Positions 20,848-62,349 of a stretch of DNA of 64,000 bases are shown here, piece by piece. The notes under the pieces are model-generated. The model saw only the letters and a program-made list of their open reading frames with translations. It had not been told where the DNA came from and did no database searches. Origin of the DNA: a virus; IMG/VR virus record IMGVR_UViG_3300036766_000416, positions 32,001-96,000 of that record; one strand, 5' to 3'. Position 1 is the stretch's first letter, and the number at the start of each line of letters is the position of its first letter. Made by a program: the position numbers and the translations under genes.

Positions 20848-20851
20848 ATCA

Positions 20852-31784: not shown

Positions 31785-31792
31785 ATGTGACT

Positions 31793-31800: not shown

Positions 31801-31809
31801 CCTTTCACT

Positions 31810-33711: not shown

Positions 33712-33712
33712 C

Positions 33713-35518: not shown

Positions 35519-35534
35519 CTTTTATAGGAACGTT

Positions 35535-38428: not shown

Positions 38429-41400
38429 TGCCACTCGATCCCATAGTTGTCCAGATTAAAGGCGGTCCTACCAAGGTTATCACAGGTCCTGCTGGTGCAG
38501 CTACACGTCTTGTTGAACTCTCAGACGTCGATGCAACACCAGTTGCCAATGGTGACGTGCTCACCTATGTCTCGGCCAACGGAAAATTTGAATTCCATCC
38601 AACAGCCGACAGTTCCAATGCCTTCGGTGTTGTCAACGTCGCGGGGCAGAACAATGTCATTGCCACAACACCTTCCGATACGCTTGAGCTAATCGCTGGA
38701 ACAGGCATCCTGGTTCTCACCGATAACGTCAATAATTCAGTGACCATCGTGGCTACAGGTGGATCGGCGTTTGACCAATATGCGCGTGATGTAGCCAACG
38801 GTGCATACGACCAAGCCAACGCGGCCTACGCAAATGCGAACACGGCGATTTATACCGCGGCGCAAATCCGCGCCAACATCAGTAACACTGCACCAATCAA
38901 CTACAGTGCGACAACAGGGATCATCAGTCACGCGGATTCCGGTGTCACCGCAACAACCTATGGTAACACCACGTATGTTCCCACGGTCACGGTGGATGCC
39001 CGTGGTCATGTGACGTCCATCACCAATACAGCAATCACATTCCCACCAAGTGGCGTCACATCGGTTGCAGGCAAGACTGGAGCAGTTCTCCTAGACACGT
39101 ATGACATTGCGGAGAACACTTCAAGCAACCTCTGGTTCACTGCTGCAAGAGTCCGTTCGAACATTTCCAATACCGCTCCAATCAACTATGAGCCCACGAC
39201 CGGTGTTGTTTCCCATGCGGATTCTGGAGTTGTCGCTTCTGGATATGGTGATGCCGCAACGGTACCTAAGGTTGTCGTAGACTCTAAGGGGCACGCTACC
39301 TCGGTCACCAATACTTCCATTGCTATCTCAGCAGTAGCCATCACGTCAGGAACCTTAGCAGTCGCTAGAGGTGGTACCGGGCAGACAGCAATAACAGTTA
39401 ATGGATCATTGCTAATTGGAAATACCGTCAGTGGTGGATTCGACGTCAACCCGATCACGCAGGGTGCGGGAATTCTGGTCACCAATGACAAGGGTTCAAT
39501 TACAATTACAGCGAACGTCACTTCAGCGACCGATCAATTCGCCCGAGACCAAGCGAATGCTGCATATAATCAAGCGAATAATGCCTATGCGAATGCGAAC
39601 ACGGCCATCTACACAGCGGCTCAGATACGCGCCAACATTTCCAACACAGCACCAATAAACTATGACCCTACAGCAGGTGTAATCAGTCATGCGTTATCTG
39701 GAGTAGCCGCATCAGGATATGGTGACGCTGCCACCGTAGCCAAAGTTGTTGTAGATTCGAATGGTCACGTCACCTCGGTCGTAAATACAGCCATTGCGAT
39801 TTCTGCGGCAGCAATCACCAGCGGCACCCTAGCAGTCGTTCGCGGAGGTACCGGCCAAACCGCCATCACGGTCAATGGATCATTACTTATTGGCAACACG
39901 GTCTCTAGTGGTTTTGACGTCAACCCAATCACCCAAGGTGCCGGAATCCTTATCACCAATGATAAAGGTTCGATCACCATCACTGCAAATGTGACCTCAG
40001 CTACAGATCAATTTGCTCGTGACCAAGCCAACGCTGCATTCAATCAAGCGAATACAGCGAATGTCACCGGACAAGCGGCATTTGATAAAGCGAATGGTGC
40101 CATCTATACGGCCGCACAAATCCGAGCTAACCTGTCCAATACAGCACCAATCAACTATGACGCTACTACTGGTGTCATCAGCCACGCACTATCCGGTGTG
40201 ACCGCTTCTGGATATGGCGATGCGGCCACAGTGGCCAAAGTCGTGGTGGATTCCAATGGTCACGTCACTTCCGTAGTGAATACTGCCATAGCAATCTCCG
40301 CTACGCAAATCACATCAGGAACGCTCGCGGTTGTTCGTGGGGGTACCGCACAGACTGCGATCAATGGCAATGGTTCTCTGCTCATCGGCAATACCGTATC
40401 AGGTGGTTATGATGTCAACACCCTCACTCAAGGCACCGGTATCATCATCACCAACGATAAGGGCTCAATCACGATTGAAGCGACGGGTGGGGCGGCAACC
40501 GATCAGTATGCCCGCGACAAAGCTAACGGGGCCGCACAGAATGCCTTCGTCACGATCAACATTGCTGGACAGTCCGATGTGGTGGCGGATTCCAATGTAG
40601 ACACCCTGATTCTCGTAGCTGGTACAGGCATACTACTCACCACTGATTCACCAAACGACACCATCACCATTACAGCAACGGGTGGATCAGCGACCGACCA
40701 ATTCGCCAGAGACACAGCTAATGGTGCGTTCGCAAAGGCCAATGGGGCCGCACAAAATGCCTTCGTCACACTCAATGTAGCGGGTCAATCGGATATCGTA
40801 GCGGATTCGAATACCGATACCTTGACGATTGTTGGTTCAGGTATCACGATTACGACTGATGCGGGAACCGATACACTGACCATTCAGCACCCGGCATCAG
40901 GTGTTGTGGCCTCTGGATATGGTGACGCTGCGACAGTGCCGAAGTTTGTGGTCGATGCCAATGGTCACGTCACTTCGGTCACGAATACAGCCATCGCTAT
41001 CTCAGCGACACAGATTACTTCTGGTACTCTTACCGTAGCACGGGGGGGTACCGGTCAAACCGCCATTACAGTGAATGGTTCATTGTTGATTGGCAATACC
41101 GTTAGTGGTGGTTTCGACGTGAACCCGATTACCCAGGGCACTAACATTACGGTCACCAATGACAAAGGTTCGATCACCATATCGTCAAGTGATGCCTTCG
41201 CGCAGTCTCAAGCCAATGCGGCCTATGATCGTGCCAATGCCGCCTATGCGAACGCGAATACTGCCATCTACACCGCAGCACAAATCCGTGCCAATTTGTC
41301 TAATACCACACCGATCAATTATGACGCGACGACGGGTGTTATCAGTCATGCGCTCTCTGGAGTCGCGGCAAGTGGTTATGGTGATGCAGCCACAGTGGCG

Positions 41401-44400
41401 AAGGTTGTGGTGGATTCGAATGGTCACGTCACTTCAGTCACCAATACTGCTATAGCAATATCCGCAACACAAATTACTTCAGGCACCTTAGCGGTTGTTC
41501 GTGGGGGTACTGGGCAGACCGCAATCACGGTGAATGGTTCGTTGTTGATTGGAAACACAGTGAGTGGGGGATTCGACGTCAATCCAATCACACAGGGAAC
41601 CAATATCACCGTTACGAACGATAAAGGTTCGATTACCATATCATCTAGCGATGCTTTCGCGCAATCCCAGGCCAATGCCGCTTATGACCGAGCGAATGCC
41701 GCCTATGCCAATGCGAACACCGCTATCTACACTGCGGCTCAAATCAGGGCTAATCTTTCGAACACCGCGCCGATCAATTATGACGCCACCACTGGTGTTA
41801 TTTCCCATGCGGTATCGGGTGTCGCCGCGAGTGGTTATGGTGATGCAGCTACGGTGCCGAAGGTTGTGGTTGATGTAACAGGGCACGTCACTTCCGTAGT
41901 GAATACCGCCATAGCAATCTCTGCTGCTGCAATCACGTCAGGTACTCTAGCGGTCGCTAGAGGAGGTACCGGTCAAACTACCATCACGGTGAATGGATCA
42001 CTCCTCATAGGTAATACAGTCTCCGGTGGCTTTGACGTCAACCCCATTACTCAAGGGACCAATATCACCATCACCAATGATAAGGGTTCGATCACGATTG
42101 CATCGTCAGATGCCTTTGCCCAGTCTCAAGCGAATGCGGCTTTTGATCGTGCCAATGCCGCCTATGCCAATGCCAATACAGCAATTTACACCGCTGCTCA
42201 AATAAGAGCCAATCTTTCCAATACTGCCCCAATCAATTACGATGCCACAACAGGAGTTATCAGTCACGCAATATCAGGTGTAACCGCTTCTGGTTACGGT
42301 GACGCGGCTACAGTAGCCAAGGTTGTTGTTGATACCTTTGGTCATGTCACTTCAGTCACCAATACTGCCATAGCAATCTCTGCTGCTGCAATCACCAGTG
42401 GCACCTTAGCGGTCGCTAGAGGTGGCACAGCACAAACGGCGATCAATGGCAATGGTTCTTTGCTCATCGGCAACACAGTCTCCGGTGGCTACGACGTCAA
42501 CACCTTGACCCAGGGAACTGGTATCGTCATCACCAACGATAAGGGATCGATCACGATTGCCGCAACAGGTGGCTCTGCGACCGATGATTATGCGAGAGCA
42601 CACGCCAATGGTGCGTTTGATAAAGCTAATGGTGCCGCACAGAATGCGTTTATTACACTCAACGTCGCTGGTCAATCCGATATCGTGGCGGATTCGAATG
42701 TAGACACCTTGATTCTTGTGGGTTCTGGTATCACCCTTACGACAGATGCGGGTACCGATACCCTAACCATCCAGCACCCGGCGTCTGGTGTTGTCGCCTC
42801 AGGTTATGGTGACGCATCGACAGTGCCGAAGTTTGTGGTCGATGCCAATGGTCACGTCACTTCGGTCACGAATACAGCCATAGCAATATCCGCAACACAA
42901 ATCACTTCAGGAACACTTGCGGTCGCCCGAGGTGGCACAGGTCAAACCGCAATCACTGTAAATGGTTCTCTCTTAATTGGAAATACTGTGTCCGGTGGTT
43001 TCGACGTCAATCCAATTACTCAAGGAACCAATATCACTGTTACAAACGATAAAGGTTCGATCACGATTTCGTCAAGTGATGCCTTTGCTCAGTCCCAAGC
43101 CAATGCGGCCTTTGATCGTGCGAATGCAGCCTATGCGAATGCCAATACAGCTATCTACACCGCGGCTCAAATAAGGGCCAATCTGTCCAACACAGCACCA
43201 ATAAATTATGACGCAACCACTGGAGTCATCAGCCATGCCTTGTCTGGTGTAACGGCCTCTGGATATGGTGACGCGGACACAGTAGCAAAGGTTGTAGTAG
43301 ACTCCAACGGGCACGTCACTTCAGTAGTGAATACGGCCATAGCAATATCCGCCACACAAATCACATCGGGAACTTTAGCAGTTGCTAGAGGTGGAACGGG
43401 TCAAACCGCGATTACGGTAAATGGCTCCTTGTTGATCGGCAATACCGTTAGTGGTGGTTTTGACGTCAACCCGATTACTCAAGGAACCAACATCACAGTT
43501 ACGAACGACAAGGGTTCAATTGCAATCTCGTCCAGTGATGCCTTTGCCCAGGCTCAAGCCAATGCGGCCTTTGCTCGTGCCAATGCGGCCTATGCCAATG
43601 CGAACACCGCTATCTACACTGCGGCTCAAATCAGGGCTAATCTTTCGAACACCGCGCCGATCAATTATGACGCCACCACTGGAGTTATCAGTCATGCTCT
43701 GTCTGGTGTAACCGCTTCGGGTTATGGTGACGCAGCTACTGTCGCAAAGGTTGTCGTGGATTCGAATGGTCATGTAACTTCAGTAGTGAATACTGCTATA
43801 GCGATTTCTGCAACACAGATTACTTCAGGCACCTTAGCAGTTGTTCGTGGAGGTACTGGACAAACCGCTATAACGGTCAACGGTTCCCTGCTCATCGGCA
43901 ACACGGTCTCTGGTGGATTCGATGTAAACCCGATTACTCAGGGCACCAATATCACGGTCACCAATGACAAGGGTTCGATCACCATATCCTCATCGGATGC
44001 GTTTGCCCAGTCTCAAGCGAACGCTGCGTTCGACAGAGCCAATGCTGCTTACGCGAATGCGAACACCGCGATTTACACCGCTGCCCAGATTCGAGCGAAC
44101 CTTAGTAACACAGCCCCAATCAATTATGATGCCACCACTGGTGTTATTTCCCATGCGTTATCTGGAGTAACGGCGAGTGGTTATGGCGATGCAGCAACGG
44201 TGGCAAAAGTCGTCGTGGACTCAAACGGTCATGTAACTTCAGTAGTGAATACTGCTATAGCAATTTCCGCTACGCAAATCACCAGTGGTACCTTAGCAGT
44301 TGTTCGCGGGGGTACCGCACAAACGGCGATCAACGGCAATGGTTCCTTGTTGATCGGCAATACGGTGTCCGGTGGCTACGACGTCAATACCTTGACCCAG

Positions 44401-47400
44401 GGTTCTGGTATCGTCATCACCAATGATAAGGGATCAATCACCGTCGCAGCCACTGGTGGTGCGGCGATCGACCAATATGCCAGAGACAAGGCGAATGGTG
44501 CTGCACAGAATGCCTTCATCACCCTGAATGTCGCCGGACAGTCGGACATTGTAGCCGACTCCAATGTAGACACACTGATTCTCGTCGGATCGGGTATCAC
44601 CCTCACGACTGATGCAGGCACCGACACATTGACGATTCAGCACCCCGCGTCGGGCGTCACACCATCAGGTTATGGTGATGCGGCCACGGTACCTAAGTTT
44701 GTGGTGGACGCAAATGGGCATGTTACATCCGTCACCAATACAGCCATCGCCATCTCCGCGACACAAATTACTTCAGGAACCTTAGCGGTCGCACGAGGAG
44801 GTACAGGACAAACAGCCATCACGGTCAACGGCTCCTTATTGATTGGAAACACGGTCTCTGGTGGATTTGACGTCAATCCAATCACCCAGGGAACGAATAT
44901 CCTCATCACCAACGACAAAGGCTCAATCACGATTGCTTCTAGCGATGCTTTCGCACAAACTCAAGCGAATGCGGCCTTTGATCGGGCGAATGCGGCCTAC
45001 GCGAATGCGAATACCGCCATCTATACTGCAGCACAAATTCGCGCCAACATCAGCAATACCGCTCCGATTAGGTATGATGCCACAACCGGAATTGTGAGTC
45101 ATGCAGATTCGGGCGTTGTCGCCTCTGGTTACGGTGATGCCGCAACCATTCCCGTCTTTGTCGCCAATGCGACCGGGCACATTTCTTCTGTCACCAATAC
45201 AGCCATCGCCATCTCTGCGACACAAATCACTTCAGGCACCCTTGCGGTCGCTCGTGGAGGTACCGCACAAACCGCCATCAACGGAAACGGTTCACTATTG
45301 ATAGGTAACACCGTCAGCGGCGGCTACGATGTCAATACCCTCACTCAAGGAACCGGAATCGTCATCACCAATGACAAGGGATCAATCAGTATAGCAGCCA
45401 CCGGTGGTGCGAGTGCTAATGGATTTGGGATCATAGAGGTTGCTGGACAAGCTAATGTGGTCGCCGACCAAGCCAATGATACCCTGTTGCTCGTCGGATC
45501 GGGTATCACCCTCACGACTGATGCAGGCACCGACACATTGACGATTCAGCACCCTGCCTCTGGAGTCGTAGCATCTGGGTACGGTGATGCAGCGACAGTA
45601 CCTAAAGTAGTGGTGGATGCGAATGGACATTTAACGTCTGTGGTCAATACTTCCATAGCGATTTCAGCAACACAAATCACCTCAGGAACCTTGGCTGTGG
45701 TGCGTGGTGGTACTGGACAAACAGCAATCACTGTAAACGGTTCCCTGCTCATAGGTAACACAGTGTCGGGTGGGTTCGACGTCAATCCAATCACTCAGGG
45801 CACCAATATCACGGTCACGAATGATAAAGGTTCAATCACCATATCGTCTAGCGACGCTTTCGCCCAATCCCAAGCCAACGCAGCCTTTGATCGCGCCAAT
45901 GCCGCCTATGCTAATGCGAATACGGCGATTTATACCGCAGCACAAATTAGGGCTAACCTTAGCAACACCGCGCCAATAAATTATGATGCGACAACGGGTA
46001 TTGTGTCTCATGCGCTATCCGGCGTGACAGCAAGTGGTTATGGTGACGCCGCCACGGTAGCGAAGGTTGTAGTAGACTCCAACGGGCACGTCACTTCCGT
46101 AGTGAACACTGCGATAGCGATTTCCGCAACACAGATCACTTCAGGTACCCTTGCAGTAGCCAGAGGTGGTACCGGTCAAACAGCGATCACTGTCAATGGT
46201 TCCCTACTGATCGGAAACACAGTTTCGGGTGGATTTGACGTTAATACACTGACTCAGGGTACTGGTATCGTTATCACCAACGACAAGGGATCGATCACCA
46301 TAGAGGCCACTGGTGGTGCGGCGACCGATCAATTCGCAAGGGATACAGCCAATGGTGCCTTCGCAAAGGCCAATGGTGCCGCACAAAATGCGTTTGTTAC
46401 ACTCACCATTGCCGGTCAATCCGATGTGGTCGCCGATTCCAACGTCGATACACTGACCTTGGTGGCTGGTGCGGATGTTGTCTTGACGACTGATGCGGGC
46501 ACCGATACGATCACGTTTGCGACTTCACGTTATGCCAAGAACGCAGTCAACAATGAGATGGCGTTTATTTACTCGGACTATGCGGCTAATGGTGTCTATA
46601 CCTCCTGGTCCACACTTCACGCCGCTTATGTGGCCTCAGGTTCCCCAGTCTGTACGATAGGATTCTGGCAGCAGGCTCCATTCAACCCAGCGTATCTTGA
46701 TATTCCTGCAGGCGCCTGGGCCTTCGAGTTTGGTACACGATGGAAGGGGTTAGGTAGCTACAGCGATGGTACTAGCATCCGTTTCCTTGAGGGCGCTACA
46801 ATATCTGGGGTACAATTCTTTGAAACGATTTATATTCTATCTAATTCTGCTGGTGGTGTTCAGCAAATTGGAAGAACAACCGACGCCAATGGTGCCTTTA
46901 CAATTGTCAATCAACCTATTCTTCATCGCGCAGCTATCCAAGGTGGTAACTCATCACAAACAGTATTCCAGTCGATAGATACTTTAACAGAGATATGGTT
47001 GGGTGAAGAATGTGTTCTCTATGCCAATTGCGTGGGTCTAGGGGCCAATGCAAATACATTCTTTGTGAACTATGCCGGACCTAGGTCGGATATAGCAGCC
47101 AATTCTTTCGTATCCACCAATGCATCTGCCGTTCTCCAATACCGAAGATTTGATGCGAGAACGTCAACAATTAGTGCCACACAAGCATTTTTTGCTGGTA
47201 TCACTCGCACTGAAGATATACCAGAGCAAATAGGTACCACGGCCGCACGTCCTCCGGTGCCATCTAACGGCCACATGTATTATGATTCCACCATAGCGGT
47301 TCCAATCTGGTGGTATAACGGCGCCTGGAGACGCCTAGTGACTGCGAACATCCCAGAATCCACCAGCAACCTATACTTTACAGCGGCCCGTGTTCGCGCC

Positions 47401-49488
47401 AACATCAGCAACACTGCTCCAATCAATTATGACTCCACCACAGGCATAGTATCACACGCGACTTCAGGTGTCACCGCAACCGGGTACGGGGATGCAAACA
47501 CCATACCCGTAGTGGTCGTTGATAACAAAGGTCACTTGTCCTCTGTGACCAATACAGCCATCACATTCTCTGATGGGTCCGCCACATCTCCCTCTATTCC
47601 TCACCGTGGAGACCTTGATACTGGATTCTGGTTCCCTGCAGCCGATACGATTGCAGCAAGCACCAATGGTCTTGAAAGACTGCGAATCACGGATGCGGGT
47701 TACATTGGCATCGGCACCAATAACCCTGTAGCCGACATTGAATTGCTGGCCAATGCTCCAGCCGCCTACATTGTCGTGACACAATACAGCGGGGCCCCTG
47801 GAGACGCCACTGATCCTGAATTCACCACACAGGCAGCCAGAGGGACACCAGGTACCCCAGCGGCCGTTCAACAGAATGATACATTGTTTGTGTTCGGAGC
47901 AGCAGCCTACAATGGCTCTGCATTCACCCCGAACAAAGTCTACTTAGAGATGGCTGCAGCCGAGAATTGGACAGCGGCCAACAACGGCACACTCATAGGA
48001 TTCAATACGACAGCAAATAATTCTACCCTTGTTACGCGGAGGATGTTGATAGACGGAAACGGCAACATCGGTATTGCGAATAGCTCACCAAAGCACAAAT
48101 TATCCATTACGGGAAATCTTTGGGTACGCGATACTGTCGTACTCCAAGACGGATTGATCGCCAACGGGACTCTAGGTGTTGTGGGTTCTGTGCTGACATC
48201 CAATAGCGCGACACCTCGATGGACTGGGGCCTCAGCGAATGGACAATTGTTTATTGGCAACACTGTGAGTGGCGGCTATGACGTCAATACGTTGACACAA
48301 GGTTCTGGTATCGTTATCACCAACACAAAGGGTGCTATTGAGATTGCTGCCACTGGTGGAGCGGCGACCGATCAGTTTGCTAGAGATACAGCCAACGGTG
48401 CCTTTACAAAAGCCAACGGGGCTGTTCAAACGGGGTTCACGATTTACGCTGTCAGTGGTCAATCGGATATCGTACCGGATTCCAATACTGACACGATAAC
48501 TCTCGTGGGTTCAGGTATTACTCTGACGACTGATGCAGGCACCGATACACTGACGGTTCAGCACCCCGCCTCTGGTGTGACTGCAAGTGGCTATGGAGAT
48601 GCAGCCACAGTTCCTAAATTTGTTGTGGATGCAAATGGTCATGTCACAAGTGTCACGAATACGGCTATCGCAATTTCCGCTACAGCGATCACCAGTGGTA
48701 CCTTAGCGGTTGCCAGAGGAGGTACTGGTCAGACGGCCATTACCGTCAATGGTTCGTTGCTCATCGGCAACACAGTCTCCGGTGGCTTCGACGTCAACCC
48801 GATCACCGCCACAACTCCAATCGTCGTTACAAACGATAAAGGCTCTATCGCACTTACTCATGCGACCTCAGGTGTCGTAGCAACTGGTCATGGTGATGCC
48901 GCGACGGTGCCTAAGTTTATTGTAGATGACAAGGGGCACGTCACCTCGGTCACCAATACGACTATCGCCATTGCTGCATCAGCGATCACTTCAGGTGTCT
49001 TGATCCAAGCCCAAGGAGGCACAGGGTTCTCTGGTGCCACAGCGAACGGACAATTACTTATTGGAAATACAGTAAGTGGTGGATTTGATCGTGCCACGTT
49101 GACACAGGGCACCAATATCACGATCACGAACGCAAAGGGATCGATCACGATTGATTCTACGGGTGGTGCTGGCAGCAATGGATTTGGTATTGTCAGTGTC
49201 TCTGGACAATCCGACGTCGTTGCAGACCAAGCCAATGATACCCTGACCATAGTTGCGGGATCGGGAATCACAATCACAACGGCTGCTGCTCTGGATCGTG
49301 TCAACATATCAGGTCAACCAATAGGAAATACCGTAGTTGGAGATTCGGTGTTCTTTGAGAATGGTCAAACTGTTACGGGTAACTATACAATTACCACAGG
49401 CAAATCCGCGATTTCTGCTGGACCCATCACACTCAACCCAGATATTATCGTGACTGTTCCTGGGGGAAGTCGCTGGGTTATCGTATAA
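38428..49488 (+). CDS. Giant repeat-rich tail fibre / adhesin, 3686 aa
   Basis: LVELSDVD..GDVLTY motif; about 16 copies of ITSGTLAVxRGGT..NDKGSITI modules; one unique internal domain; C-terminal FFENGQTVTGNYTIT..SAGPITL..VTVPGGSRWVIV. Confidence 0.85.
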   Translation: MPLDPIVVQIKGGPTKVITGPAGAATRLVELSDVDATPVANGDVLTYVSANGKFEFHPTADSSNAFGVVNVAGQNNVIATTPSDTLELIAGTGILVLTDNVNNSVTIVATGGSAFDQYARDVANGAYDQANAAYANANTAIYTAAQIRANISNTAPINYSATTGIISHADSGVTATTYGNTTYVPTVTVDARGHVTSITNTAITFPPSGVTSVAGKTGAVLLDTYDIAENTSSNLWFTAARVRSNISNTAPINYEPTTGVVSHADSGVVASGYGDAATVPKVVVDSKGHATSVTNTSIAISAVAITSGTLAVARGGTGQTAITVNGSLLIGNTVSGGFDVNPITQGAGILVTNDKGSITITANVTSATDQFARDQANAAYNQANNAYANANTAIYTAAQIRANISNTAPINYDPTAGVISHALSGVAASGYGDAATVAKVVVDSNGHVTSVVNTAIAISAAAITSGTLAVVRGGTGQTAITVNGSLLIGNTVSSGFDVNPITQGAGILITNDKGSITITANVTSATDQFARDQANAAFNQANTANVTGQAAFDKANGAIYTAAQIRANLSNTAPINYDATTGVISHALSGVTASGYGDAATVAKVVVDSNGHVTSVVNTAIAISATQITSGTLAVVRGGTAQTAINGNGSLLIGNTVSGGYDVNTLTQGTGIIITNDKGSITIEATGGAATDQYARDKANGAAQNAFVTINIAGQSDVVADSNVDTLILVAGTGILLTTDSPNDTITITATGGSATDQFARDTANGAFAKANGAAQNAFVTLNVAGQSDIVADSNTDTLTIVGSGITITTDAGTDTLTIQHPASGVVASGYGDAATVPKFVVDANGHVTSVTNTAIAISATQITSGTLTVARGGTGQTAITVNGSLLIGNTVSGGFDVNPITQGTNITVTNDKGSITISSSDAFAQSQANAAYDRANAAYANANTAIYTAAQIRANLSNTTPINYDATTGVISHALSGVAASGYGDAATVAKVVVDSNGHVTSVTNTAIAISATQITSGTLAVVRGGTGQTAITVNGSLLIGNTVSGGFDVNPITQGTNITVTNDKGSITISSSDAFAQSQANAAYDRANAAYANANTAIYTAAQIRANLSNTAPINYDATTGVISHAVSGVAASGYGDAATVPKVVVDVTGHVTSVVNTAIAISAAAITSGTLAVARGGTGQTTITVNGSLLIGNTVSGGFDVNPITQGTNITITNDKGSITIASSDAFAQSQANAAFDRANAAYANANTAIYTAAQIRANLSNTAPINYDATTGVISHAISGVTASGYGDAATVAKVVVDTFGHVTSVTNTAIAISAAAITSGTLAVARGGTAQTAINGNGSLLIGNTVSGGYDVNTLTQGTGIVITNDKGSITIAATGGSATDDYARAHANGAFDKANGAAQNAFITLNVAGQSDIVADSNVDTLILVGSGITLTTDAGTDTLTIQHPASGVVASGYGDASTVPKFVVDANGHVTSVTNTAIAISATQITSGTLAVARGGTGQTAITVNGSLLIGNTVSGGFDVNPITQGTNITVTNDKGSITISSSDAFAQSQANAAFDRANAAYANANTAIYTAAQIRANLSNTAPINYDATTGVISHALSGVTASGYGDADTVAKVVVDSNGHVTSVVNTAIAISATQITSGTLAVARGGTGQTAITVNGSLLIGNTVSGGFDVNPITQGTNITVTNDKGSIAISSSDAFAQAQANAAFARANAAYANANTAIYTAAQIRANLSNTAPINYDATTGVISHALSGVTASGYGDAATVAKVVVDSNGHVTSVVNTAIAISATQITSGTLAVVRGGTGQTAITVNGSLLIGNTVSGGFDVNPITQGTNITVTNDKGSITISSSDAFAQSQANAAFDRANAAYANANTAIYTAAQIRANLSNTAPINYDATTGVISHALSGVTASGYGDAATVAKVVVDSNGHVTSVVNTAIAISATQITSGTLAVVRGGTAQTAINGNGSLLIGNTVSGGYDVNTLTQGSGIVITNDKGSITVAATGGAAIDQYARDKANGAAQNAFITLNVAGQSDIVADSNVDTLILVGSGITLTTDAGTDTLTIQHPASGVTPSGYGDAATVPKFVVDANGHVTSVTNTAIAISATQITSGTLAVARGGTGQTAITVNGSLLIGNTVSGGFDVNPITQGTNILITNDKGSITIASSDAFAQTQANAAFDRANAAYANANTAIYTAAQIRANISNTAPIRYDATTGIVSHADSGVVASGYGDAATIPVFVANATGHISSVTNTAIAISATQITSGTLAVARGGTAQTAINGNGSLLIGNTVSGGYDVNTLTQGTGIVITNDKGSISIAATGGASANGFGIIEVAGQANVVADQANDTLLLVGSGITLTTDAGTDTLTIQHPASGVVASGYGDAATVPKVVVDANGHLTSVVNTSIAISATQITSGTLAVVRGGTGQTAITVNGSLLIGNTVSGGFDVNPITQGTNITVTNDKGSITISSSDAFAQSQANAAFDRANAAYANANTAIYTAAQIRANLSNTAPINYDATTGIVSHALSGVTASGYGDAATVAKVVVDSNGHVTSVVNTAIAISATQITSGTLAVARGGTGQTAITVNGSLLIGNTVSGGFDVNTLTQGTGIVITNDKGSITIEATGGAATDQFARDTANGAFAKANGAAQNAFVTLTIAGQSDVVADSNVDTLTLVAGADVVLTTDAGTDTITFATSRYAKNAVNNEMAFIYSDYAANGVYTSWSTLHAAYVASGSPVCTIGFWQQAPFNPAYLDIPAGAWAFEFGTRWKGLGSYSDGTSIRFLEGATISGVQFFETIYILSNSAGGVQQIGRTTDANGAFTIVNQPILHRAAIQGGNSSQTVFQSIDTLTEIWLGEECVLYANCVGLGANANTFFVNYAGPRSDIAANSFVSTNASAVLQYRRFDARTSTISATQAFFAGITRTEDIPEQIGTTAARPPVPSNGHMYYDSTIAVPIWWYNGAWRRLVTANIPESTSNLYFTAARVRANISNTAPINYDSTTGIVSHATSGVTATGYGDANTIPVVVVDNKGHLSSVTNTAITFSDGSATSPSIPHRGDLDTGFWFPAADTIAASTNGLERLRITDAGYIGIGTNNPVADIELLANAPAAYIVVTQYSGAPGDATDPEFTTQAARGTPGTPAAVQQNDTLFVFGAAAYNGSAFTPNKVYLEMAAAENWTAANNGTLIGFNTTANNSTLVTRRMLIDGNGNIGIANSSPKHKLSITGNLWVRDTVVLQDGLIANGTLGVVGSVLTSNSATPRWTGASANGQLFIGNTVSGGYDVNTLTQGSGIVITNTKGAIEIAATGGAATDQFARDTANGAFTKANGAVQTGFTIYAVSGQSDIVPDSNTDTITLVGSGITLTTDAGTDTLTVQHPASGVTASGYGDAATVPKFVVDANGHVTSVTNTAIAISATAITSGTLAVARGGTGQTAITVNGSLLIGNTVSGGFDVNPITATTPIVVTNDKGSIALTHATSGVVATGHGDAATVPKFIVDDKGHVTSVTNTTIAIAASAITSGVLIQAQGGTGFSGATANGQLLIGNTVSGGFDRATLTQGTNITITNAKGSITIDSTGGAGSNGFGIVSVSGQSDVVADQANDTLTIVAGSGITITTAAALDRVNISGQPIGNTVVGDSVFFENGQTVTGNYTITTGKSAISAGPITLNPDIIVTVPGGSRWVIV
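39340..46500 (+). repeat. Coding tandem repeats (about 153-aa / 459-nt main unit plus a longer AQNAF..QHPASG variant)
   Basis: 15 recognisable SGTL[AT]V cores in this interval. The 43843 and 44302 copies are 459 nt apart. Confidence 0.85.
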
Positions 49489-49500
49489 TGGGGGCGTGAT

Positions 49501-50883
49501 ATGGATACCACTCTGAGCAGCATAACGGGTGCGGTGACCACAAACACATTTTTTCTCGCAGGAGACACATCGGGCATCTCCAACCTCTCAGCCAATTCTG
49601 TGGCTGGCTCGACCTCACTCACTCTGCCAGGTGCCAATGGGTCGTTGATGACGGGCACTGAACCCGGCACGCTTTCTGTAATATCAGTGATCACCCCGGC
49701 TCAAATTACTGCTGATGTTGATGACTGGGTACCTGGAGGTTATACGAATGAAAAAGTCATTCGCGCCAATACCAGTGACACCTGGTCGATAGGTGGCCTA
49801 AAGTTTGGATCGACCTTGTGCGTCTCGTTGATCAACATTGGATCGAATACGTTTCTGCTGAATCATAATGTGAGTACCTCCGCGGCCGTCAATCGTTTCA
49901 GTCTCACTGAGGACCAGGTGAGCGTGTATAGCAACACCAAGGTTGTGTTGATCTATGATGTGCCTTCGAGCCGTTGGTTTGTGAATGGTGGGGAACGCAA
50001 GGTGGGGAAGGGATTCTTCTCTGGGGGCATCGCAGGTTCCCCTTCTGCTGTGGCCGACCGGACGACCTATGCGACTGAAACGACTGCAGCGGTCTCAGGG
50101 GCCAACCTGTCACTGGCCCGATCTGGTCTTGCCGGGGCCGGGACTGCAACCAAAGGCTTCTTCATTGGAGGATTCGCGGGTGGCAACTCTGCTGTGGCTG
50201 ACCGGACGACCTATGCGACCGAAGTGACTGTAGCGGTCCCTGGAGCCAATTTGCCAGTGGCACGCAATCTTCTGGCGGCCGCTGGTAATGCCTTCAAAGG
50301 ATTCTTCTCAGGAGGCAGCGGCTCGTCTGTTGTCGCCAACCGGACGACCTATGCGACCGAGGTTACGGTCGCGGTCCCTGGTGCGGACCTGTCGGTGGGA
50401 CGAGACAGTCTTACGGCCGCCGGCAATGCGACCAAAGGATTCTTCTCAGGAGGCACCACGACCGATACTGTCGAGTCCCTTGTCGCTGATCGAACGACCT
50501 ATGCGACTGAAACGACTGCAGCAGTTCCGGGTGCGAATTTATCGCTAGCCCGATGGGGACTTGCGGCCGCTGGTAATGCAACCAAAGGATTCTTTTCTGG
50601 AGGAGACCCAGTGGGTCCTGTTACCGCGGTTGCTGACCGAACGACCTATGCAACTGAAACAACTGCTGCAGTCTCTGGGGCCAATCTGTCGATGGCGAGA
50701 AATACCCTGGCCGCGACAGGTAATGCGTCCAAAGGGTTCTTCTCTGGAGGGTTCAACGACACTATTGACGTCGCTGTGGCCGACCGGACGACCTATGCGA
50801 CAGAAACAACCGCGGCGGTCTCTGGAGCAAACTTGAGCCTGGCACGAGAGGGACCTGCGGCAGCCGGCACAGGTATTTTCTAA
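49501..50883 (+). CDS. Fibre-tip protein 1: adaptor N-terminus plus six 48-aa GFFSGG (Kelch-like propeller) repeats
   Basis: LAGDTSG..AGSTSLTLP; ITPAQIT..NRF..RW; 6 x KGFFxGG..ADRTTYATE..GANLS.AR; ends TGIF. Confidence 0.75.
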   Translation: MDTTLSSITGAVTTNTFFLAGDTSGISNLSANSVAGSTSLTLPGANGSLMTGTEPGTLSVISVITPAQITADVDDWVPGGYTNEKVIRANTSDTWSIGGLKFGSTLCVSLINIGSNTFLLNHNVSTSAAVNRFSLTEDQVSVYSNTKVVLIYDVPSSRWFVNGGERKVGKGFFSGGIAGSPSAVADRTTYATETTAAVSGANLSLARSGLAGAGTATKGFFIGGFAGGNSAVADRTTYATEVTVAVPGANLPVARNLLAAAGNAFKGFFSGGSGSSVVANRTTYATEVTVAVPGADLSVGRDSLTAAGNATKGFFSGGTTTDTVESLVADRTTYATETTAAVPGANLSLARWGLAAAGNATKGFFSGGDPVGPVTAVADRTTYATETTAAVSGANLSMARNTLAATGNASKGFFSGGFNDTIDVAVADRTTYATETTAAVSGANLSLAREGPAAAGTGIF

Positions 50884-50891
50884 AGGAGTCT

Positions 50892-52280
50892 ATGGGTATC
50901 ACAATCAGTGGCGATGGGTACATTGCCGCACGTAAAATTTTCTTGCGAGGCAGCACATCAGGGAACACCACACTGTCTGCGAGTGAGAACGCAGACCTGT
51001 TTGTGGCGACTCTGCCTGCAGCCAATGGCACCCTGTTGATCGACGCGTGGTCTGATGCGGCTGTGCTGGCACCTAACATTACTCCGACACAGATCACCAG
51101 TGATACCGATGACTGGGCACCCACAGGGTACGCGAACGCTCGCATCATCCGTGCGAATACCAGCGACACCTGGTCCTTGGGTGGCCTGACGCACAGCACC
51201 ACTGACTTTGCGAACACGAATTTTGTGGTCCTACTCAATGTGGGACCGAATAGATTGCTCCTGAACCATGAAGCGAATACCTCGACGGCTGCGAATAGAT
51301 TTTATTTAGGTGAGGACCAAGTGGTTCTGTATGCGAATGCCTGTGTGTTCCTGACCTATAATAATACCTTGAGCCGTTGGGTGGCAAATGGTGGCGAACG
51401 AAAGGTTGGGAAAGGATTCTTCTCTGGAGGTCACACAGGTTCCGTTTCTGCTGTGGCCGACCGGACGACCTATGCCACAGAGACAACCGCAGCGGTCCCT
51501 GGAGCAAACTTGAGCCTGGCACGGCAGTTGCTTGCGGCTGCTGGCAATGCCTCCAAAGGATTCTTCTCAGGAGGCACCACAGGTGTAAGGTCTGTTGTGG
51601 CTGACCGGACCACCCATGCCACTGAAGTCACCGCAGCGGTCTCTGGTGCGAACTTGAGTGTAGCACGAGAGGGACCTGCGGCCGCTGGAAATGCCTTCAA
51701 AGGCTTTTTCTCAGGAGGTTCCACAGGTGCCGATTCTGCTGTGGCCGACCGGACGACGTATGCCACAGAAGTGACCGTTGCGGTCCCTGGAGCAAACTTG
51801 AGCCTGGCACGGCAGTTGCTTGCGGCTGCTGGCAATGCCTCCAAAGGATTCTTCTCAGGAGGCTTCACAGGTTCCTATTCTGCTGTAGCCGACCGGACGA
51901 CCTATGCAACCGAAACGACGGCTGCGGTCTCTGGAGCCAACTTGAGTGTGGCACAATCCGACCTTGCGGCTGCTGGTAATGCCTCCAAAGGATTCTTCTC
52001 AGGAGGCTTCACAGGTTCCTATTCTGCTGTAGCCAACCGGACGACCTATGCAACCGAAACGACGGCTGCGGTCTCTGGAGCCGACTTGAGTGGGGCCCGA
52101 GCCATTCTCGCTGCCGCAGGCAACGCCTCCAAAGGGTTCTTCTCAGGAGGCGACACGGGGTCTGATTCTGCTGTGGCTGACCGGACCACGTATGCAACCG
52201 AAGTAACTGTAGCGGTCTCTGGTGCAAACCTCAGCGTGGCACGTGACGGGACAGCGGCCACAGGCACCGGTATTTTCTAA
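50892..52280 (+). CDS. Fibre-tip protein 2, same architecture
   Basis: LRGSTSG..TLP; six 48-aa repeats; ends TGIF. Confidence 0.75.
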   Translation: MGITISGDGYIAARKIFLRGSTSGNTTLSASENADLFVATLPAANGTLLIDAWSDAAVLAPNITPTQITSDTDDWAPTGYANARIIRANTSDTWSLGGLTHSTTDFANTNFVVLLNVGPNRLLLNHEANTSTAANRFYLGEDQVVLYANACVFLTYNNTLSRWVANGGERKVGKGFFSGGHTGSVSAVADRTTYATETTAAVPGANLSLARQLLAAAGNASKGFFSGGTTGVRSVVADRTTHATEVTAAVSGANLSVAREGPAAAGNAFKGFFSGGSTGADSAVADRTTYATEVTVAVPGANLSLARQLLAAAGNASKGFFSGGFTGSYSAVADRTTYATETTAAVSGANLSVAQSDLAAAGNASKGFFSGGFTGSYSAVANRTTYATETTAAVSGADLSGARAILAAAGNASKGFFSGGDTGSDSAVADRTTYATEVTVAVSGANLSVARDGTAATGTGIF

Positions 52281-52289
52281 GAGGAACGA

Positions 52290-53666
52290 ATGAGTCTTAT
52301 TCTCGACGGCAACACAGCCACAGTCACCGCGAACTCCATTATTTTTAGGGGGAATACCTCAGGTACGATCACGCTCACTGCAAATGCAGTTGCCGATACT
52401 ACGAACATTTACTTGCCCGGTGTGACTGGCACCCTACAGACGACCTCGAATACCGCGAATGTCGTCACCACGGCACCGATGATTACTCCGACACAGATCA
52501 CCGTGGATACCGATGACTGGGCACCCACAGGGTACGCGAATGCCAAGGTGATCAATGCCAACACCAGTGACGTGTGGTCTCTAGGTGGCCTGACCTATGG
52601 ATTGACGAATTCTGTCATCATAAATAATGTTGGAGCAAATAGTTTTCTATTGAACCATGAGGCGAATACCTCCACGGCGGCAAATAGATTTCAGTTAGAC
52701 GAAGATCAAGTCACCGTGTATGCGAATGTCTCGATTTTCCTCATGTATGACGTCACTGGGACCCGTTGGGTTGTCAATGGGGGTGAACGAAAAGTCGGCA
52801 AAGGGTTCTTCTCAGGAGGCTTTACAAGTTCCGACTCTGCTGTAGCCGACCGGACGACCTATGCGACTGAAGTCACTGCAGCGGTCTCTGGTGCGAACCT
52901 CAGTGTAGCCCGAGATGGCCCTGCGGCTGCCGGTAATGCGTCCAAAGGATTCTTCTCAGGAGGCCATGCAGGTTCCGACTCTGCTGTAGCCGACCGGACG
53001 ACGTATGCAACTGAAGTCACCGCAGCGGTCCCCGGTGCGAACTTGAGCCTGGCACGGCGTTACCCGGCAGCCGCCGGTAATGCCTCCAAAGGATTCTTCT
53101 CAGGAGGTTTTACAGGCACCTATTCTGTTGTGGCCGACCGGACGACCTATGCGACCGAGGTTACCGCTGCAGTCTCTGGTGCGAACTTGAGCGTGGCGCG
53201 GAACGAACTGGCGGCCGCCGGTAATGCCTCCAAAGGGTTCTTCTCAGGAGGCGGCACAGGTGCCGACTCTGCTGTGGCCGACCGGACCACCTATTCGACC
53301 GAAGTGACTGCAGCGGTCTCTGGTGCGAACTTGAGCGTGGCGCGAAACGGACTTGCGGCCGCTGGTAATGCCTCCAAAGGGTTCTTCTCAGGAGGCCATA
53401 CAGGTTCCAATTCTGTTGTGGCCGACCGGACGACGTATGCAACTGAAGTGACTGCAGCGGTCTCTGGTGCGGACTTGAGCGTAGCCAGGCAGTTGCCCTC
53501 CGCTGCTGGTAATGCGTCCAAAGGATTCTTCTCAGGAGGTGATCCAGGTCCTTCTGCTGTGGCCGACCGGACCACGTATGCGACGGAAACGACTGCAGCG
53601 GTCTCTGGAGCGAACTTGAGCCTGGCACGATACGGGTTGGCTGCAGCCGGCACTGGAATTTTCTAA
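52290..53666 (+). CDS. Fibre-tip protein 3, same architecture
   Basis: FRGNTSG..LP; six 48-aa repeats; ends TGIF. Confidence 0.75.
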   Translation: MSLILDGNTATVTANSIIFRGNTSGTITLTANAVADTTNIYLPGVTGTLQTTSNTANVVTTAPMITPTQITVDTDDWAPTGYANAKVINANTSDVWSLGGLTYGLTNSVIINNVGANSFLLNHEANTSTAANRFQLDEDQVTVYANVSIFLMYDVTGTRWVVNGGERKVGKGFFSGGFTSSDSAVADRTTYATEVTAAVSGANLSVARDGPAAAGNASKGFFSGGHAGSDSAVADRTTYATEVTAAVPGANLSLARRYPAAAGNASKGFFSGGFTGTYSVVADRTTYATEVTAAVSGANLSVARNELAAAGNASKGFFSGGGTGADSAVADRTTYSTEVTAAVSGANLSVARNGLAAAGNASKGFFSGGHTGSNSVVADRTTYATEVTAAVSGADLSVARQLPSAAGNASKGFFSGGDPGPSAVADRTTYATETTAAVSGANLSLARYGLAAAGTGIF

Positions 53667-53688
53667 TGTTCACTATGAGGAGGTTATA

Positions 53689-54255
53689 ATGAATTTACCA
53701 GAAATTATTTCACAACATGATGCGCTCTTTGCCGCGTTTGACGCCGTTAGTCAACCACGAAGCGATTATCAACTGAGAAAGTTTGTGGTGGGAGAACACG
53801 AAACACCCGAGAGACAGTATCTTCAAGTCGTGGTCGAAATGCAACGAAAAGTGTCGTCCCTTCGACGCGCTGTGATTGAGCGACGAAAGAAAATCGCCGC
53901 CATAGAGAAGGAAACGGATCTCGACGAGAAAGAATTGATGCAGATTGATCTTGATGACATGAACTTTGCGATTACGGGGGCCATGCGCGAATTCAACACG
54001 CTCTATGACATCTACATGAGCCTTCCGACATTCACGACCCAGCAACTTCAGGATGCGGAAGAAGGTTACTGGATTCGCCGATTGATTCGTCAATCACAGG
54101 TTGATATCGATTCCTGTGGGCAAGTGTCACCTGGCAACATGGATGCCCTGAGACAAGCAGGGATTGTCACCGGATTTGAGGAACGATTCAATTTGGTTTC
54201 ACAGTCACTTCGAGGAGTCAATCATGATTTACTTCAGTTACCAACTCAAGGCTAA
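53689..54255 (+). CDS. Coiled-coil hypothetical protein following the propeller genes
   Basis: GAGGAGG RBS. SDYQLRKFVV..TPERQYLQVVVE, then heptad-rich helices. Confidence 0.8.
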   Translation: MNLPEIISQHDALFAAFDAVSQPRSDYQLRKFVVGEHETPERQYLQVVVEMQRKVSSLRRAVIERRKKIAAIEKETDLDEKELMQIDLDDMNFAITGAMREFNTLYDIYMSLPTFTTQQLQDAEEGYWIRRLIRQSQVDIDSCGQVSPGNMDALRQAGIVTGFEERFNLVSQSLRGVNHDLLQLPTQG

Positions 54256-54826
54256 TCCTGATGGGTCGCGGTCAGGACCCGCGAGTATTCTTCCGGCCAA
54301 TTCCGTCACTGGGATCACGGCCAATGGAAATTACTACGGAAAAGCCAGTATCGGTTCGATTTCCATTTTGACGAATGCTGGATTTCAGGCGAACGTGCTC
54401 AATAGTGCGTATCAGTATGTCATGGCCAATGCGGCGAACGGTGTGATTACAGGGGTCGAGCGTCGTGCTGACCATCTTCTGATTACAAACAATTCGGCCA
54501 ATACCGCCAATGCAGAGAATATCGCCTTTACAGCCTATACGACCTGGATCAGCGAGGGGAAGGTACCACTACCACCAACACTCCCCTATGAGACACCTGA
54601 TTATGAAGGATTTAGTAGCTGGCTGAACAATGCGCTCTCGGTGGTCAATATCAATGCGTTTTGCGCCGCGTACCCAGGGTTCGCATGGTTTGTGATGTCA
54701 CACAATAATGCTGGTATCTCAGCGGTGATGATCGACGCCTTCAACACCGGAAAAATTACGGCCGGGCAACTCTTGGCCGTCAAGAACTCGATGATCGATT
54801 TCAACATTCCTATTGTGCTACCATAA
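54224..54826 (+). CDS. Hypothetical protein, 200 aa
   Basis: GAGGAG at 54212-54217 supports ATG 54224 (MIYFSYQLK..). Confidence 0.75.
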   Translation: MIYFSYQLKANPDGSRSGPASILPANSVTGITANGNYYGKASIGSISILTNAGFQANVLNSAYQYVMANAANGVITGVERRADHLLITNNSANTANAENIAFTAYTTWISEGKVPLPPTLPYETPDYEGFSSWLNNALSVVNINAFCAAYPGFAWFVMSHNNAGISAVMIDAFNTGKITAGQLLAVKNSMIDFNIPIVLP

Positions 54827-54838
54827 AGGGATCACTCC

Positions 54839-55630
54839 ATGGCTCTACTGAGAATTGCAGGAGACACTTCGGGATTCTCCAACCTCGCGGCCCCCGCGGT
54901 CGCGGGGAGTAACACCTACACCTTTGACTACCCCCAAGGATCACCTGTCACCACGCTGACGCCTGTCGTCATCGCCAACGGCACTCTGTTGATGGGCAAT
55001 ACGATCTCAGGACGTCTGGAGGCCAACACCCTTGTTGCCGGAACCAGCATCACAATCACCAATGGACCGAGTACCATCACGATTGCTTCGACCGTTACGG
55101 GCACCGCGGGTCTCCATACCATTTGGGTGCCTGCATGGGCCATGTATCCCACGACCACCAACGGGGCCTCAGCAGCGAACGGTGCGTTCCAAACAGTCAC
55201 CAACATCCTGATGTTCAAGACCCTGGACTATGATACGACCACCTCAGAGAAAGCCCAGTTCAGTCTCAAGCTTGGCAACTCGTGGAACCTGAGCACGGTG
55301 ACTGCAAAGGTCGTCTGGTCTCACGGTACGACCGCGACCAACTTTGGAGTCTCGTGGTCTGTCGCAGGACATGCGTTCAGTGACAACGAAGCGGGTGACG
55401 CAGCACTCGGTACTCCAATGGTGTTCAGTGACACCGGTGGTACCGCGAACAACATTTATATTTCACCTGCATCGGGAGGCATCACGATTGGTGGTACCCC
55501 TGCGGATGGTGATTGGATCATCATGGAAGTCTTGCGCTCAGTCGCCAATGCGAGTGATACCATGGCGATTGATGCCCGACTGCATGGCGTCGAATTGACC
55601 TACACCACCGATGCCGAAACGGATGCTTAA
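54839..55630 (+). CDS. Fibre-tip protein 4: same GDTSG..P adaptor N-terminus, different beta-sandwich-like head
   Basis: IAGDTSGFSNLAAPAVAGSNTYT; GTLLMGNT..LVAGTSITITNGPSTITI resembles the giant-fibre module. Confidence 0.7.
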   Translation: MALLRIAGDTSGFSNLAAPAVAGSNTYTFDYPQGSPVTTLTPVVIANGTLLMGNTISGRLEANTLVAGTSITITNGPSTITIASTVTGTAGLHTIWVPAWAMYPTTTNGASAANGAFQTVTNILMFKTLDYDTTTSEKAQFSLKLGNSWNLSTVTAKVVWSHGTTATNFGVSWSVAGHAFSDNEAGDAALGTPMVFSDTGGTANNIYISPASGGITIGGTPADGDWIIMEVLRSVANASDTMAIDARLHGVELTYTTDAETDA

Positions 55631-58793: not shown

Positions 58794-58804
58794 GAAATAA
58801 TACT

Positions 58805-60402: not shown

Positions 60403-60403
60403 C

Positions 60404-61300: not shown

Positions 61301-61309
61301 AGGACTACG

Positions 61310-62335: not shown

Positions 62336-62349
62336 AGGATGACTAGATC

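What the first reader, a model, noticed from the sequence alone, without database searches (positions are those of the whole stretch)
49300..55630. Plug-and-socket branched receptor system: one fibre end, four heads sharing an adaptor peptide
Seen: the giant fibre ends not in a head but in FFENGQTVTGNYTITTGKSAISAGPITL..VTVPGGSRWVIV. Four downstream genes start with the same motif: LAGDTSGISNLSANSVAGSTSLTLP (49501), LRGSTSGNTTLSA..TLP (50892), FRGNTSGTITLTA..YLP (52290) and IAGDTSGFSNLAAPAVAG (54839). They carry two different head types. Two unknown ORFs (53689, coiled-coil; 54224) sit inside the cluster. Inference: the C-terminal motif is a socket onto which alternative heads polymerise or compete, giving heterogeneous or multivalent fibre tips, and the coiled-coil ORF may be a chaperone or linker. 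I recall both motifs adjacent in other environmental phages but know of no functional description.
Basis: partly seen in the sequence, partly recalled or inferred. Interest (0 to 1): 0.7.

Follow-up and report, generated by a model that had tools for sequence, protein, structure and literature searches.

The report
Plug-and-socket joint on phage tail fibres
A cyanophage's giant tail fibre ends in a small conserved domain and four downstream receptor-binding heads start with a matching conserved peptide; the same pair sits side by side in very many aquatic phages, so it is most likely the joint that fastens interchangeable heads to fibre ends.

Summary
The 3686-aa fibre (38428-49488) ends in a 46-aa all-beta domain (the "socket", 49348-49485). 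Exactly four ORFs in the 178.6-kb genome begin with one ~35-aa peptide (the "plug"). Three are tandem Kelch-type propeller paralogs. One is a CBM6/36-like beta-sandwich head.

The pair is general. The socket occurs in at least 7479 protein clusters and lies at the extreme C-terminus in 143 of the top 150. In loci picked by the plug alone, 69 of 82 plugs (58 of 65 clusters at 70% identity) have a socket gene within 2.5 kb upstream on the same strand. None has one on the opposite strand. The plug starts at residue 1-2 and precedes at least 23 unrelated heads. Mini-proteins of 94-98 aa carry a plug and a socket together, and one is followed by another plug-bearing head.

P-SSP7 gp17 ends in the socket. 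Published host-range mutations map to its downstream genes 37 and 38.

Physical docking is not shown: an AF2 monomer fusion was inconclusive, and no solved structure matches. Branching versus competition is open. The typical locus has one plug gene, so four is an expansion. P0004 is not tied to the system.

Verdict: a new docking-module family working on a known principle (KP32 anchor-branch, T4 fibre joints).

The parts
38428..49488 (+). Giant repetitive tail fibre (3686 aa), the proximal element that carries the socket
   Evidence: ORF list. PHROG tail-fibre hits lie in its last 400 aa and match the C-terminal ends of phrog_34255 and phrog_36881.
49348..49485 (+). Socket: 46-aa conserved all-beta C-terminal domain ending at the stop codon
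   Evidence: Unique in the genome. Found in 54 phage records. At least 7479 protein clusters match the combined socket+plug profile, and 143 of the top 150 have it at the exact C-terminus. AF2 pLDDT 83-92. No fold match.
49501..50883 (+). Head A1 (P0001): short leader, plug, middle domain, six-blade Kelch-type propeller (residues ~160-460)
   Evidence: Atlas structure TM 0.88 to Kelch-like protein clusters. phrog_19111.
49549..49647 (+). Plug of head A1 (residues 17-49)
50892..52280 (+). Head A2 (P0002), paralog of A1; plug at 50937-51035
52290..53666 (+). Head A3 (P0003), paralog of A1; plug at 52338-52436
53689..54255 (+). P0004: conserved cyanomyovirus protein of unknown function (phrog_1409; homolog Syn19_045, T4-GC 353). 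Lies in the cluster but is not specific to the plug-socket pair
54224..54826 (+). P0005: orphan ORF with no family hit, no plug and no phage homolog found
54839..55630 (+). Head B (P0006): plug at residues 1-36 (54839-54946), linker, CBM6/35/36-like beta-sandwich tip at residues 91-258 (55109-55612)
   Evidence: AF2 pLDDT about 90 for the tip. VIA Z 12.6, rmsd 2.7 over 123 of 124 aa of CBM36 7ay3_A. The tip domain occurs in at least 512 proteins with many different N-termini.

Best explanation
The last 46 residues of the giant fibre form a small, conserved, autonomously folding beta domain. It serves as the distal attachment point (socket) of the fibre. The ~35-residue peptide at the very N-terminus of each downstream head (core G-x-T-S-G ... 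A-P-A-x-A-G ... L-T-L-P) is the complementary docking element (plug). Each head is a module of plug, optional spacer and receptor-binding domain. It is made separately and fastened non-covalently to the fibre end. Receptor specificity can then be changed by swapping, duplicating or adding head genes without touching the fibre. In this phage one socket is served by four plug-bearing heads: three Kelch-type propellers and one CBM-like sugar-binding sandwich. Virions should therefore carry more than one receptor specificity at the fibre tips. Shown here: the motifs, their strict terminal positions, their synteny and co-occurrence, the modularity of the heads, and the existence of plug+socket adaptors. 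Inferred: the physical contact, the stoichiometry, and whether different heads share one fibre.
For: (1) Position. 304 sockets in 307 fetched loci all end within 7 aa of the stop, 284 of them exactly. 143 of the top 150 hits among 1.84 billion proteins are C-terminal. The plug starts at the first residue in 138 of 161 cases.
(2) Synteny. In loci chosen by a plug DNA pattern alone, 69 of 82 plugs with at least 3 kb upstream have a socket gene within 2.5 kb upstream on the same strand. That is 58 of 65 clusters at 70% identity and 32 of 38 at 50%. Pooled, 171 of 202 plugs fit this and none has a socket on the opposite strand. The socket is present in only 54 of 50,697 phage records.
(3) Modularity. 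One plug precedes at least 23 unrelated head families. The P0006 tip domain occurs behind many other N-termini.
(4) Adaptors. Proteins of 94-98 aa consist of a plug plus a socket (P0015, P0016), and longer ones exist. P0015 is a genuine ORF and is followed 9 nt later by a plug-bearing head.
(5) Socket-bearing proteins have virion-anchoring N-termini. These include the T7 tail-fibre N-terminal domain, and P-SSP7 gp17 is one of them.
(6) The socket is conserved (50-70% identity) across phages of cyanobacteria, Vibrio, Rhodobacteraceae and Methylophilales. This fits a structural interface, not a receptor-binding tip.
(7) In P-SSP7, resistance-breaking mutations map to genes 37 and 38, directly downstream of the socket-bearing fibre gene (PMC5520035).
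Against: No contact was demonstrated. AF2 on the monomeric read-through fusion gave pTM 0.39 and a plug at pLDDT 60-71 without strands. Plug-like units also occur 11-19 times, by the plug-only profile, inside giant fibre proteins, so the peptide may be a general shaft element. Genes with other N-terminal types also follow sockets directly. In 74 of 104 in-frame TAA-ATG junctions the next gene lacks a type-A plug. S-CAM7 has a socket with no plug gene nearby. No natural socket-plug fusion exists among the top hits; the one candidate depends on TAG being read as Q.
Confidence: 0.65

Rival explanations
1. The N-terminal peptide is only a common fibre-shaft repeat unit, inherited when heads were carved out of longer fibres. 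The heads attach elsewhere (baseplate, other fibres) or are independent short fibres. Adjacency to socket genes merely reflects clustering of fibre genes.
For: Giant proteins P0011-P0013 and P0102 contain 11-19 internal plug-like units by the plug-only profile; P0010 has 44 stretches matching the combined profile. AF2 did not dock the plug. Several N-terminal types follow sockets.
Against: Clustering alone does not explain three things. The plug sits at residue 1-2 in 138 of 161 cases. The socket is always upstream on the same strand within 2.5 kb and never downstream-only or opposite in the great majority. Plug+socket mini-proteins of 94-98 aa have no other content.
Confidence: 0.15
2. The two conserved segments are mainly recombination linkers. 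They are conserved gene-boundary sequences that let head cassettes be exchanged between phages, with no protein-protein role.
For: The region downstream of the fibre gene is a hypervariable metagenomic island in T7-like cyanophages (PMC5520035). A homing endonuclease in MEP301 sits between two plug-type head genes and starts with the same first ten codons as the head downstream of it. Heads are shuffled.
Against: Conservation is at the protein level between phages whose DNA is unalignable; megablast of the whole region finds nothing. The socket is a confidently folded domain. It spans myo- and podoviruses of unrelated hosts. The two roles are not exclusive.
Confidence: 0.1
3. The C-terminal domain is itself a small receptor-binding or cell-wall-binding knob, and the downstream proteins act independently as second fibres or chaperones.
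For: T7 gp17 ends in a receptor-binding tip (general knowledge). S-CAM7's socket protein has no plug gene nearby. One protein has four tandem socket domains (P0014), as lectin-like modules sometimes do.
Against: The domain is 50-70% identical across phages of very different hosts, whereas receptor tips are hypervariable. P-SSP7 host-range mutations fall in genes 37 and 38, not at the gp17 end. No fold match to any lectin or CBM was found.
Confidence: 0.06

Closest known systems
Anchor-branch dual RBP system of Klebsiella phage KP32 and relatives (also G7C gp66/gp63.1)
   Same: A second receptor-binding protein, encoded just downstream, docks through a short conserved N-terminal peptide onto a conserved domain of the first fibre or spike. 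The enzymatic or binding modules are swappable (PMC13082707).
   Different: In KP32 the docking (branching) domain is T4 gp10-like and lies near the N-terminus of RBP1, ahead of RBP1's own active domain. Here the docking domain is a 46-aa unit at the extreme C-terminus of a fibre that has no head of its own. It has no detectable fold or sequence match.
Serial joints of the T4 long tail fibre (gp34-gp35-gp36-gp37)
   Same: Separate gene products, encoded in proximal-to-distal order, are joined end to end to make one fibre whose last piece binds the receptor (established knowledge of T4). The plug+socket adaptors found here would play the part of gp35/gp36.
   Different: No sequence relation: PHROG and Pfam scans give no gp35, gp36 or gp37 hits. 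Here one joint type is reused for many heads and across myo- and podoviruses.
P-SSP7 fibre gene 36 (gp17) with downstream paralogous genes 37-39
   Same: Same socket at the gp17 C-terminus and small head genes directly downstream; gene 38 starts with a plug-like peptide. Genes 37 and 38 carry host-range mutations (PMC5520035).
   Different: The published work did not identify the shared terminal motifs or the mode of attachment. It states that direct evidence for a structural role is lacking. The distal gp17 is unresolved in cryo-EM.
Branched L-shaped fibres of T5-like phages DT57C (LtfA/LtfB) and the tail-spike complexes of CBA120-like Ackermannviridae
   Same: Several RBPs are assembled on one appendage through dedicated N-terminal attachment modules (titles and abstracts).
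   Different: Different attachment domains; not compared in detail here.

Membership tests
KP32-type anchor-branch RBP system | Secondary RBP carries a conserved N-terminal docking peptide | tested here: met
   The plug is at residue 1-2 of the ORF in 138 of 161 cases and is shared by at least 23 head families. This is analogy, not homology.
KP32-type anchor-branch RBP system | Docking domain is a T4 gp10-like branching domain placed N-proximally in RBP1 | tested here: not met
   The docking candidate lies at the extreme C-terminus (284 of 304 end exactly at the stop). Fold comparison with T4 gp10-like domains was inconclusive: best VIA Z 2.4, Foldseek E above 3.
KP32-type anchor-branch RBP system | Physical complex of RBP1 and RBP2 | not testable with these tools
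   Only monomer AF2 was available. The read-through fusion was inconclusive.
T4 long-tail-fibre joint proteins (gp35/gp36/gp37) | Sequence homology to gp35, gp36 or gp37 | tested here: not met
   No such PHROG or Pfam family hit for any of the seven proteins.
T4 long-tail-fibre joint proteins (gp35/gp36/gp37) | Proximal-to-distal gene order with end-to-end assembly | tested here: inconclusive
   The gene order fits (fibre, then heads; adaptor, then head in L315). Assembly itself was not observed.
Kelch-type six-blade beta-propeller (heads A1-A3) | Six ~48-aa blades with a G-G doublet, and a propeller fold | tested here: met
   Six repeats are seen in alignment A1. The Atlas model of residues 160-460 aligns at TM 0.88 to Kelch-like protein clusters.
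Kelch-type six-blade beta-propeller (heads A1-A3) | Match to Pfam Kelch profiles | tested here: not met
   No Pfam hit at E up to 0.1. There is only a weak PDB Kelch hit at E 0.077. Treat this as fold-level likeness.
CBM6/35/36-like beta-sandwich (head B tip) | Beta-sandwich fold superposable on CBM6/35/36 | tested here: met
   VIA Z 12.6, rmsd 2.7, 123 of 124 aa of 7ay3_A; many CBM6/35/36 rows at Z 10-12. Foldseek 1w0n E 1.2e-4.
CBM6/35/36-like beta-sandwich (head B tip) | Sugar- or calcium-binding residues | not tested
   No residue-level comparison was made.
Peptidase S74 intramolecular chaperone (as a reading of the fibre C-terminus) | Match to the S74 profile; helical domain of about 100-150 aa | tested here: not met
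   No Pfam hit on the last 399 aa. The domain is 46 aa and all-beta.

The most novel reading that the evidence does not exclude
The socket-plug pair is a universal, reusable fibre connector of aquatic phages. It permits both daisy-chaining, through plug+socket adaptors, and multi-head tips. Each chain of the trimeric socket would hold one plug, so that three heads, possibly different paralogs, sit on one fibre end. Virions of this phage would then display mixed propeller and CBM tips, a combinatorial receptor array.
Probability: 0.2. Interest if true: 0.8.

Novelty: new variant of a known kind. Interest (0 to 1): 0.6.

Why it matters
The receptor-binding proteins of marine cyanophages and other abundant aquatic phages are largely unidentified, and the distal fibre is invisible in current cryo-EM maps. 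A sequence rule would let receptor-binding proteins be called automatically in thousands of uncultured phage genomes. The rule is: a fibre that ends in the socket, then genes that start with the plug. It would also explain the hypervariable island downstream of fibre genes, and why P-SSP7 host-range mutations fall in genes 37 and 38. Finally, it offers a natural plug-in site for head-swapping experiments in model phage-host pairs.

Tried and rejected
- Megablast of the region against phage records found no match.
- The search for related loci with plug alignments failed twice because no stretch was conserved enough. I replaced it with a degenerate DNA pattern.
- The first AF2 alignment was discarded because MAFFT placed unpaired plug rows over the socket. 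I rebuilt it with 17 in-frame read-through pairs plus socket-only rows.
- That misalignment suggested plug and socket might be homologous. hhalign says they are not: probability 0.3%.
- The socket fold gave nothing in Foldseek PDB or VIA-wide. PDB sequence and profile searches also gave nothing.
- The apparent natural fusion P0065 is rejected, because it translates only with TAG read as Q.
- The 'chain-like fibres' of podophage A1002 are a different thing: dimers strung on a rope protein.
- P0004 as a dedicated chaperone is unsupported.
- P0005 has no homolog in phage records.
- Covariation between socket and plug was considered and not run. There are too few independent pairs, and shared ancestry cannot be controlled.
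Full report
**Context**

The window is bases 32001-96000 of a single 178.6-kb contig with 48% G+C. PHROG scans identify T4-type baseplate wedge proteins at 16454-22222. They also identify the neck, sheath-stabiliser and terminase genes at 57828-64000, with GIY-YIG homing endonucleases and a NifU-like gene between them. The genome is therefore of the T4-like cyanomyovirus type. The finding lies in the fibre region between these blocks. All its genes are on the + strand, separated by 8-22 nt or overlapping, which suggests one operon.

**The observation**

A TAA stop follows, then 12 nt, then the next ATG in the same frame.
- P0001, P0002 and P0003 (49501, 50892, 52290) are paralogs of about 67% identity. 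Each has a short leader, the shared peptide, a middle domain and six repeats of about 48 aa.
- P0006 (54839) shares only residues 6-42 with residues 19-55 of P0001: 51% identity, E 7e-6.
- A profile of the three paralogs' N-termini finds P0006 at E 8e-4 among all 2251 frames of the genome, and nothing else. The fibre's C-terminal peptide is unique in the genome.
The non-trivial part is the fourth, unrelated head.

**The heads**

- Residues 160-460 of P0001 superpose at TM 0.88 on Kelch-like protein clusters and on many viral proteins, using the Atlas's own model. No Pfam Kelch profile matches, so this is likeness of fold.
- The repeats resemble proteins of the Synechococcus siphovirus S-SKS1. 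The middle domain resembles annotated tail-fibre proteins of freshwater phages.
- AF2 on P0006 with 120 homologs gives a tip at residues 91-258 with pLDDT about 90. It superposes on CBM36, CBM6 and CBM35 modules: VIA Z 12.6, rmsd 2.7 over 123 of 124 aa of 7ay3_A; Foldseek E 1.2e-4.
- That tip occurs in at least 512 proteins behind many different N-termini. Only 8 of the 120 listed carry the plug.
- Two head types are thus confirmed, and both are plausible glycan binders.

**The socket elsewhere**

- tblastn finds the last 48-70 aa of the fibre in 54 of 50,697 phage records. These include T4-like cyanophages (S-CAM7, S-T4, P-TIM68, S-RIM44 and others), T7-like cyanophages (P-SSP7, S-SBP1, SS120-1), and Vibrio, Lentibacter and Methylophilales phages.
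- In P-SSP7 gp17, MEP401 gp57, MEP301 gp22 and S-T4 gp069 the match ends at the last residue of the annotated fibre.
- In 80 IMG/VR loci all 96 hits end within 7 aa of a stop.
- A combined socket+plug profile searched against 1.84 billion representative proteins gives 7479 clusters at E up to 1e-3. Of the top 150, 143 have the socket at the exact C-terminus.
- Among 87 such proteins, the recognisable N-terminal domains are fibre-anchoring ones: T7 tail-fibre N-terminal domain in 6, Mtd_N in 5, fibre repeats and collagen.

**Co-occurrence**

- Forward test. With a strict profile, 27 of 47 socket loci with at least 3 kb downstream have the plug. Inspection of the rest shows a variant plug (G-N-A-S-G-T-G ... 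A-P-N-T-N-T ... L-T-L-P-D) or other N-terminal types in the next genes.
- Reverse test. Loci were picked by a degenerate DNA pattern for the plug alone. Of 82 plugs with at least 3 kb upstream, 69 have a socket gene upstream on the same strand, all within 2.5 kb.
- After dereplication this is 58 of 65 clusters at 70% identity and 32 of 38 at 50%.
- Pooled over 307 loci, which are partly redundant: 171 of 202 plugs have a socket within 3 kb upstream, and none has a socket only on the opposite strand.
- The plug begins at the first residue in 138 of 161 cases and precedes at least 23 unrelated head families.
- A typical locus has one type-A plug gene per socket: 52 of 67, none with two or more. 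The four in this window are therefore an expansion.

**Adaptors and fusions**

- Nine hits in the pooled, partly redundant loci are ~254-aa proteins with a plug at one end and a socket at the other. The big search adds proteins of 94-98 aa that are nothing but plug plus socket (P0015, P0016), and longer ones.
- P0015 is a true table-11 ORF. A plug-bearing head follows it 9 nt later. A serial or branching connector would look like this.
- One protein has four tandem sockets (P0014), so the domain folds autonomously.
- The one apparent socket-head fusion (P0065) depends on reading TAG as Q. I reject it.

**Structure**

- I folded the natural read-through of the fibre's last 75 aa into the first 70 aa of P0001 (TAA read as Q). 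The alignment held 17 in-frame read-through pairs from other loci plus socket-only rows.
- The socket is confident (pLDDT 83-92, all-beta). The plug reaches only 60-71 with no strands, and pTM is 0.39.
- Fibres are normally trimers, and only a monomer could be run. This neither supports nor refutes docking.
- The socket matches no solved fold and no PDB sequence.
- Plug and socket are not homologous to each other.

**Literature**

- Cryo-EM of P-SSP7 and P-SCSP1u resolves only the N-terminal ~117 aa of the fibre.
- Schwartz and Lindell 2017 found that P-SSP7 resistance-breaking mutants carry mutations in genes 37 and 38. These form a paralogous cassette directly downstream of fibre gene 36. 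The authors proposed them as unrecognised host-recognition proteins and noted that direct evidence of a structural role is lacking (PMC5520035). Gene 36 ends in the socket, and gene 38 begins with a plug-like peptide.
- The nearest described principle is the KP32 anchor-branch system. There RBP2 docks by a conserved N-terminal peptide on a T4 gp10-like branching domain of RBP1 (PMC13082707).
- In four literature searches I found no paper describing this motif pair. The library is incomplete, so prior description cannot be excluded.

**Mechanism and rivals**

Most likely (about 0.65), the socket is the distal attachment point of the fibre. Plug-bearing heads are fastened to it as exchangeable receptor-binding modules.

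Rivals:
- The plug is only a shaft repeat. Plug-like units occur 11-19 times, by the plug-only profile, inside some giant proteins.
- The motifs are mainly recombination linkers.
- The socket is itself a binding knob.

Each rival is weakened by one or more of the following:
- the strict terminal positions of both motifs;
- the fixed order and strand of the two genes;
- the minimal plug+socket adaptors;
- conservation of the socket across unrelated hosts;
- the P-SSP7 genetics.

Open points:
- stoichiometry;
- whether the four heads branch, mix or compete;
- how genes with other N-terminal types attach after sockets;
- the roles of P0004 and P0005. P0004 is conserved in 115 cyanomyovirus records and so is not specific to the system. 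P0005 is an orphan.

Noticed in passing
L003:6023-7161 (Methylophilales phage MEP301 gp20, gp19): The annotated endonuclease gp20 sits between two plug-type head genes. It begins with the same first ten residues as the plug of the head gene downstream of it, as if the insertion duplicated the start of that head gene.
   Followed up: no
window 49501-49548, 50892-50936, 52290-52337: The three propeller heads carry a 15-16-aa leader before the plug. By eye it resembles the second common N-terminal type found after sockets (M-x-I-T-I-N-G-T-T-G-I). P0006 has the plug alone.
   Followed up: no
window 56016-57044: ORF for a glycine-rich protein (long G/A/T runs) in a stretch with GC skew +0.24. No Pfam or PHROG hit; it lies just after the head cluster.
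   Followed up: partly
window 37839-38357, 57064-57828, 58805-59440: Three GIY-YIG-type homing endonuclease genes. One lies immediately upstream of the giant fibre gene, and two flank the gp13 neck gene.
   Followed up: partly
many IMG/VR loci, e.g. L056:6567-6575, L158, L033: The socket gene's TAA stop is directly abutted by the ATG of the next gene in the same frame (V-stop-M). At least 104 socket-bearing instances were recovered with one DNA pattern. The window has the same frame relation with four extra codons.
   Followed up: partly
P0014 (329 aa, metagenomic): A protein with four tandem copies of the socket domain and no plug. This shows that the domain is an autonomous unit.
   Followed up: partly
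P0010-P0013, P0102 (1782-4593 aa, metagenomic): Giant proteins with repeated plug-like units: 11-19 copies by the plug-only profile in P0011-P0013 and P0102, and 44 matching stretches to the combined profile in P0010. The window's own giant fibre has none.
   Followed up: partly
window 22268-28507: A 2079-aa ORF with a DUF4815 domain (E 4e-64) upstream of four tandem paralogous fibre-like genes (29478-37460).
   Followed up: no
alignment A9 (socket-bearing proteins): Just upstream of the socket, many proteins share a further conserved stretch (G-T-T-x-Q-R-P ... R-x-N ... E-G ... W ... glycine-rich linker). The conserved fibre end may therefore be longer than 46 aa in most phages. The window's fibre lacks this part.
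   Followed up: no
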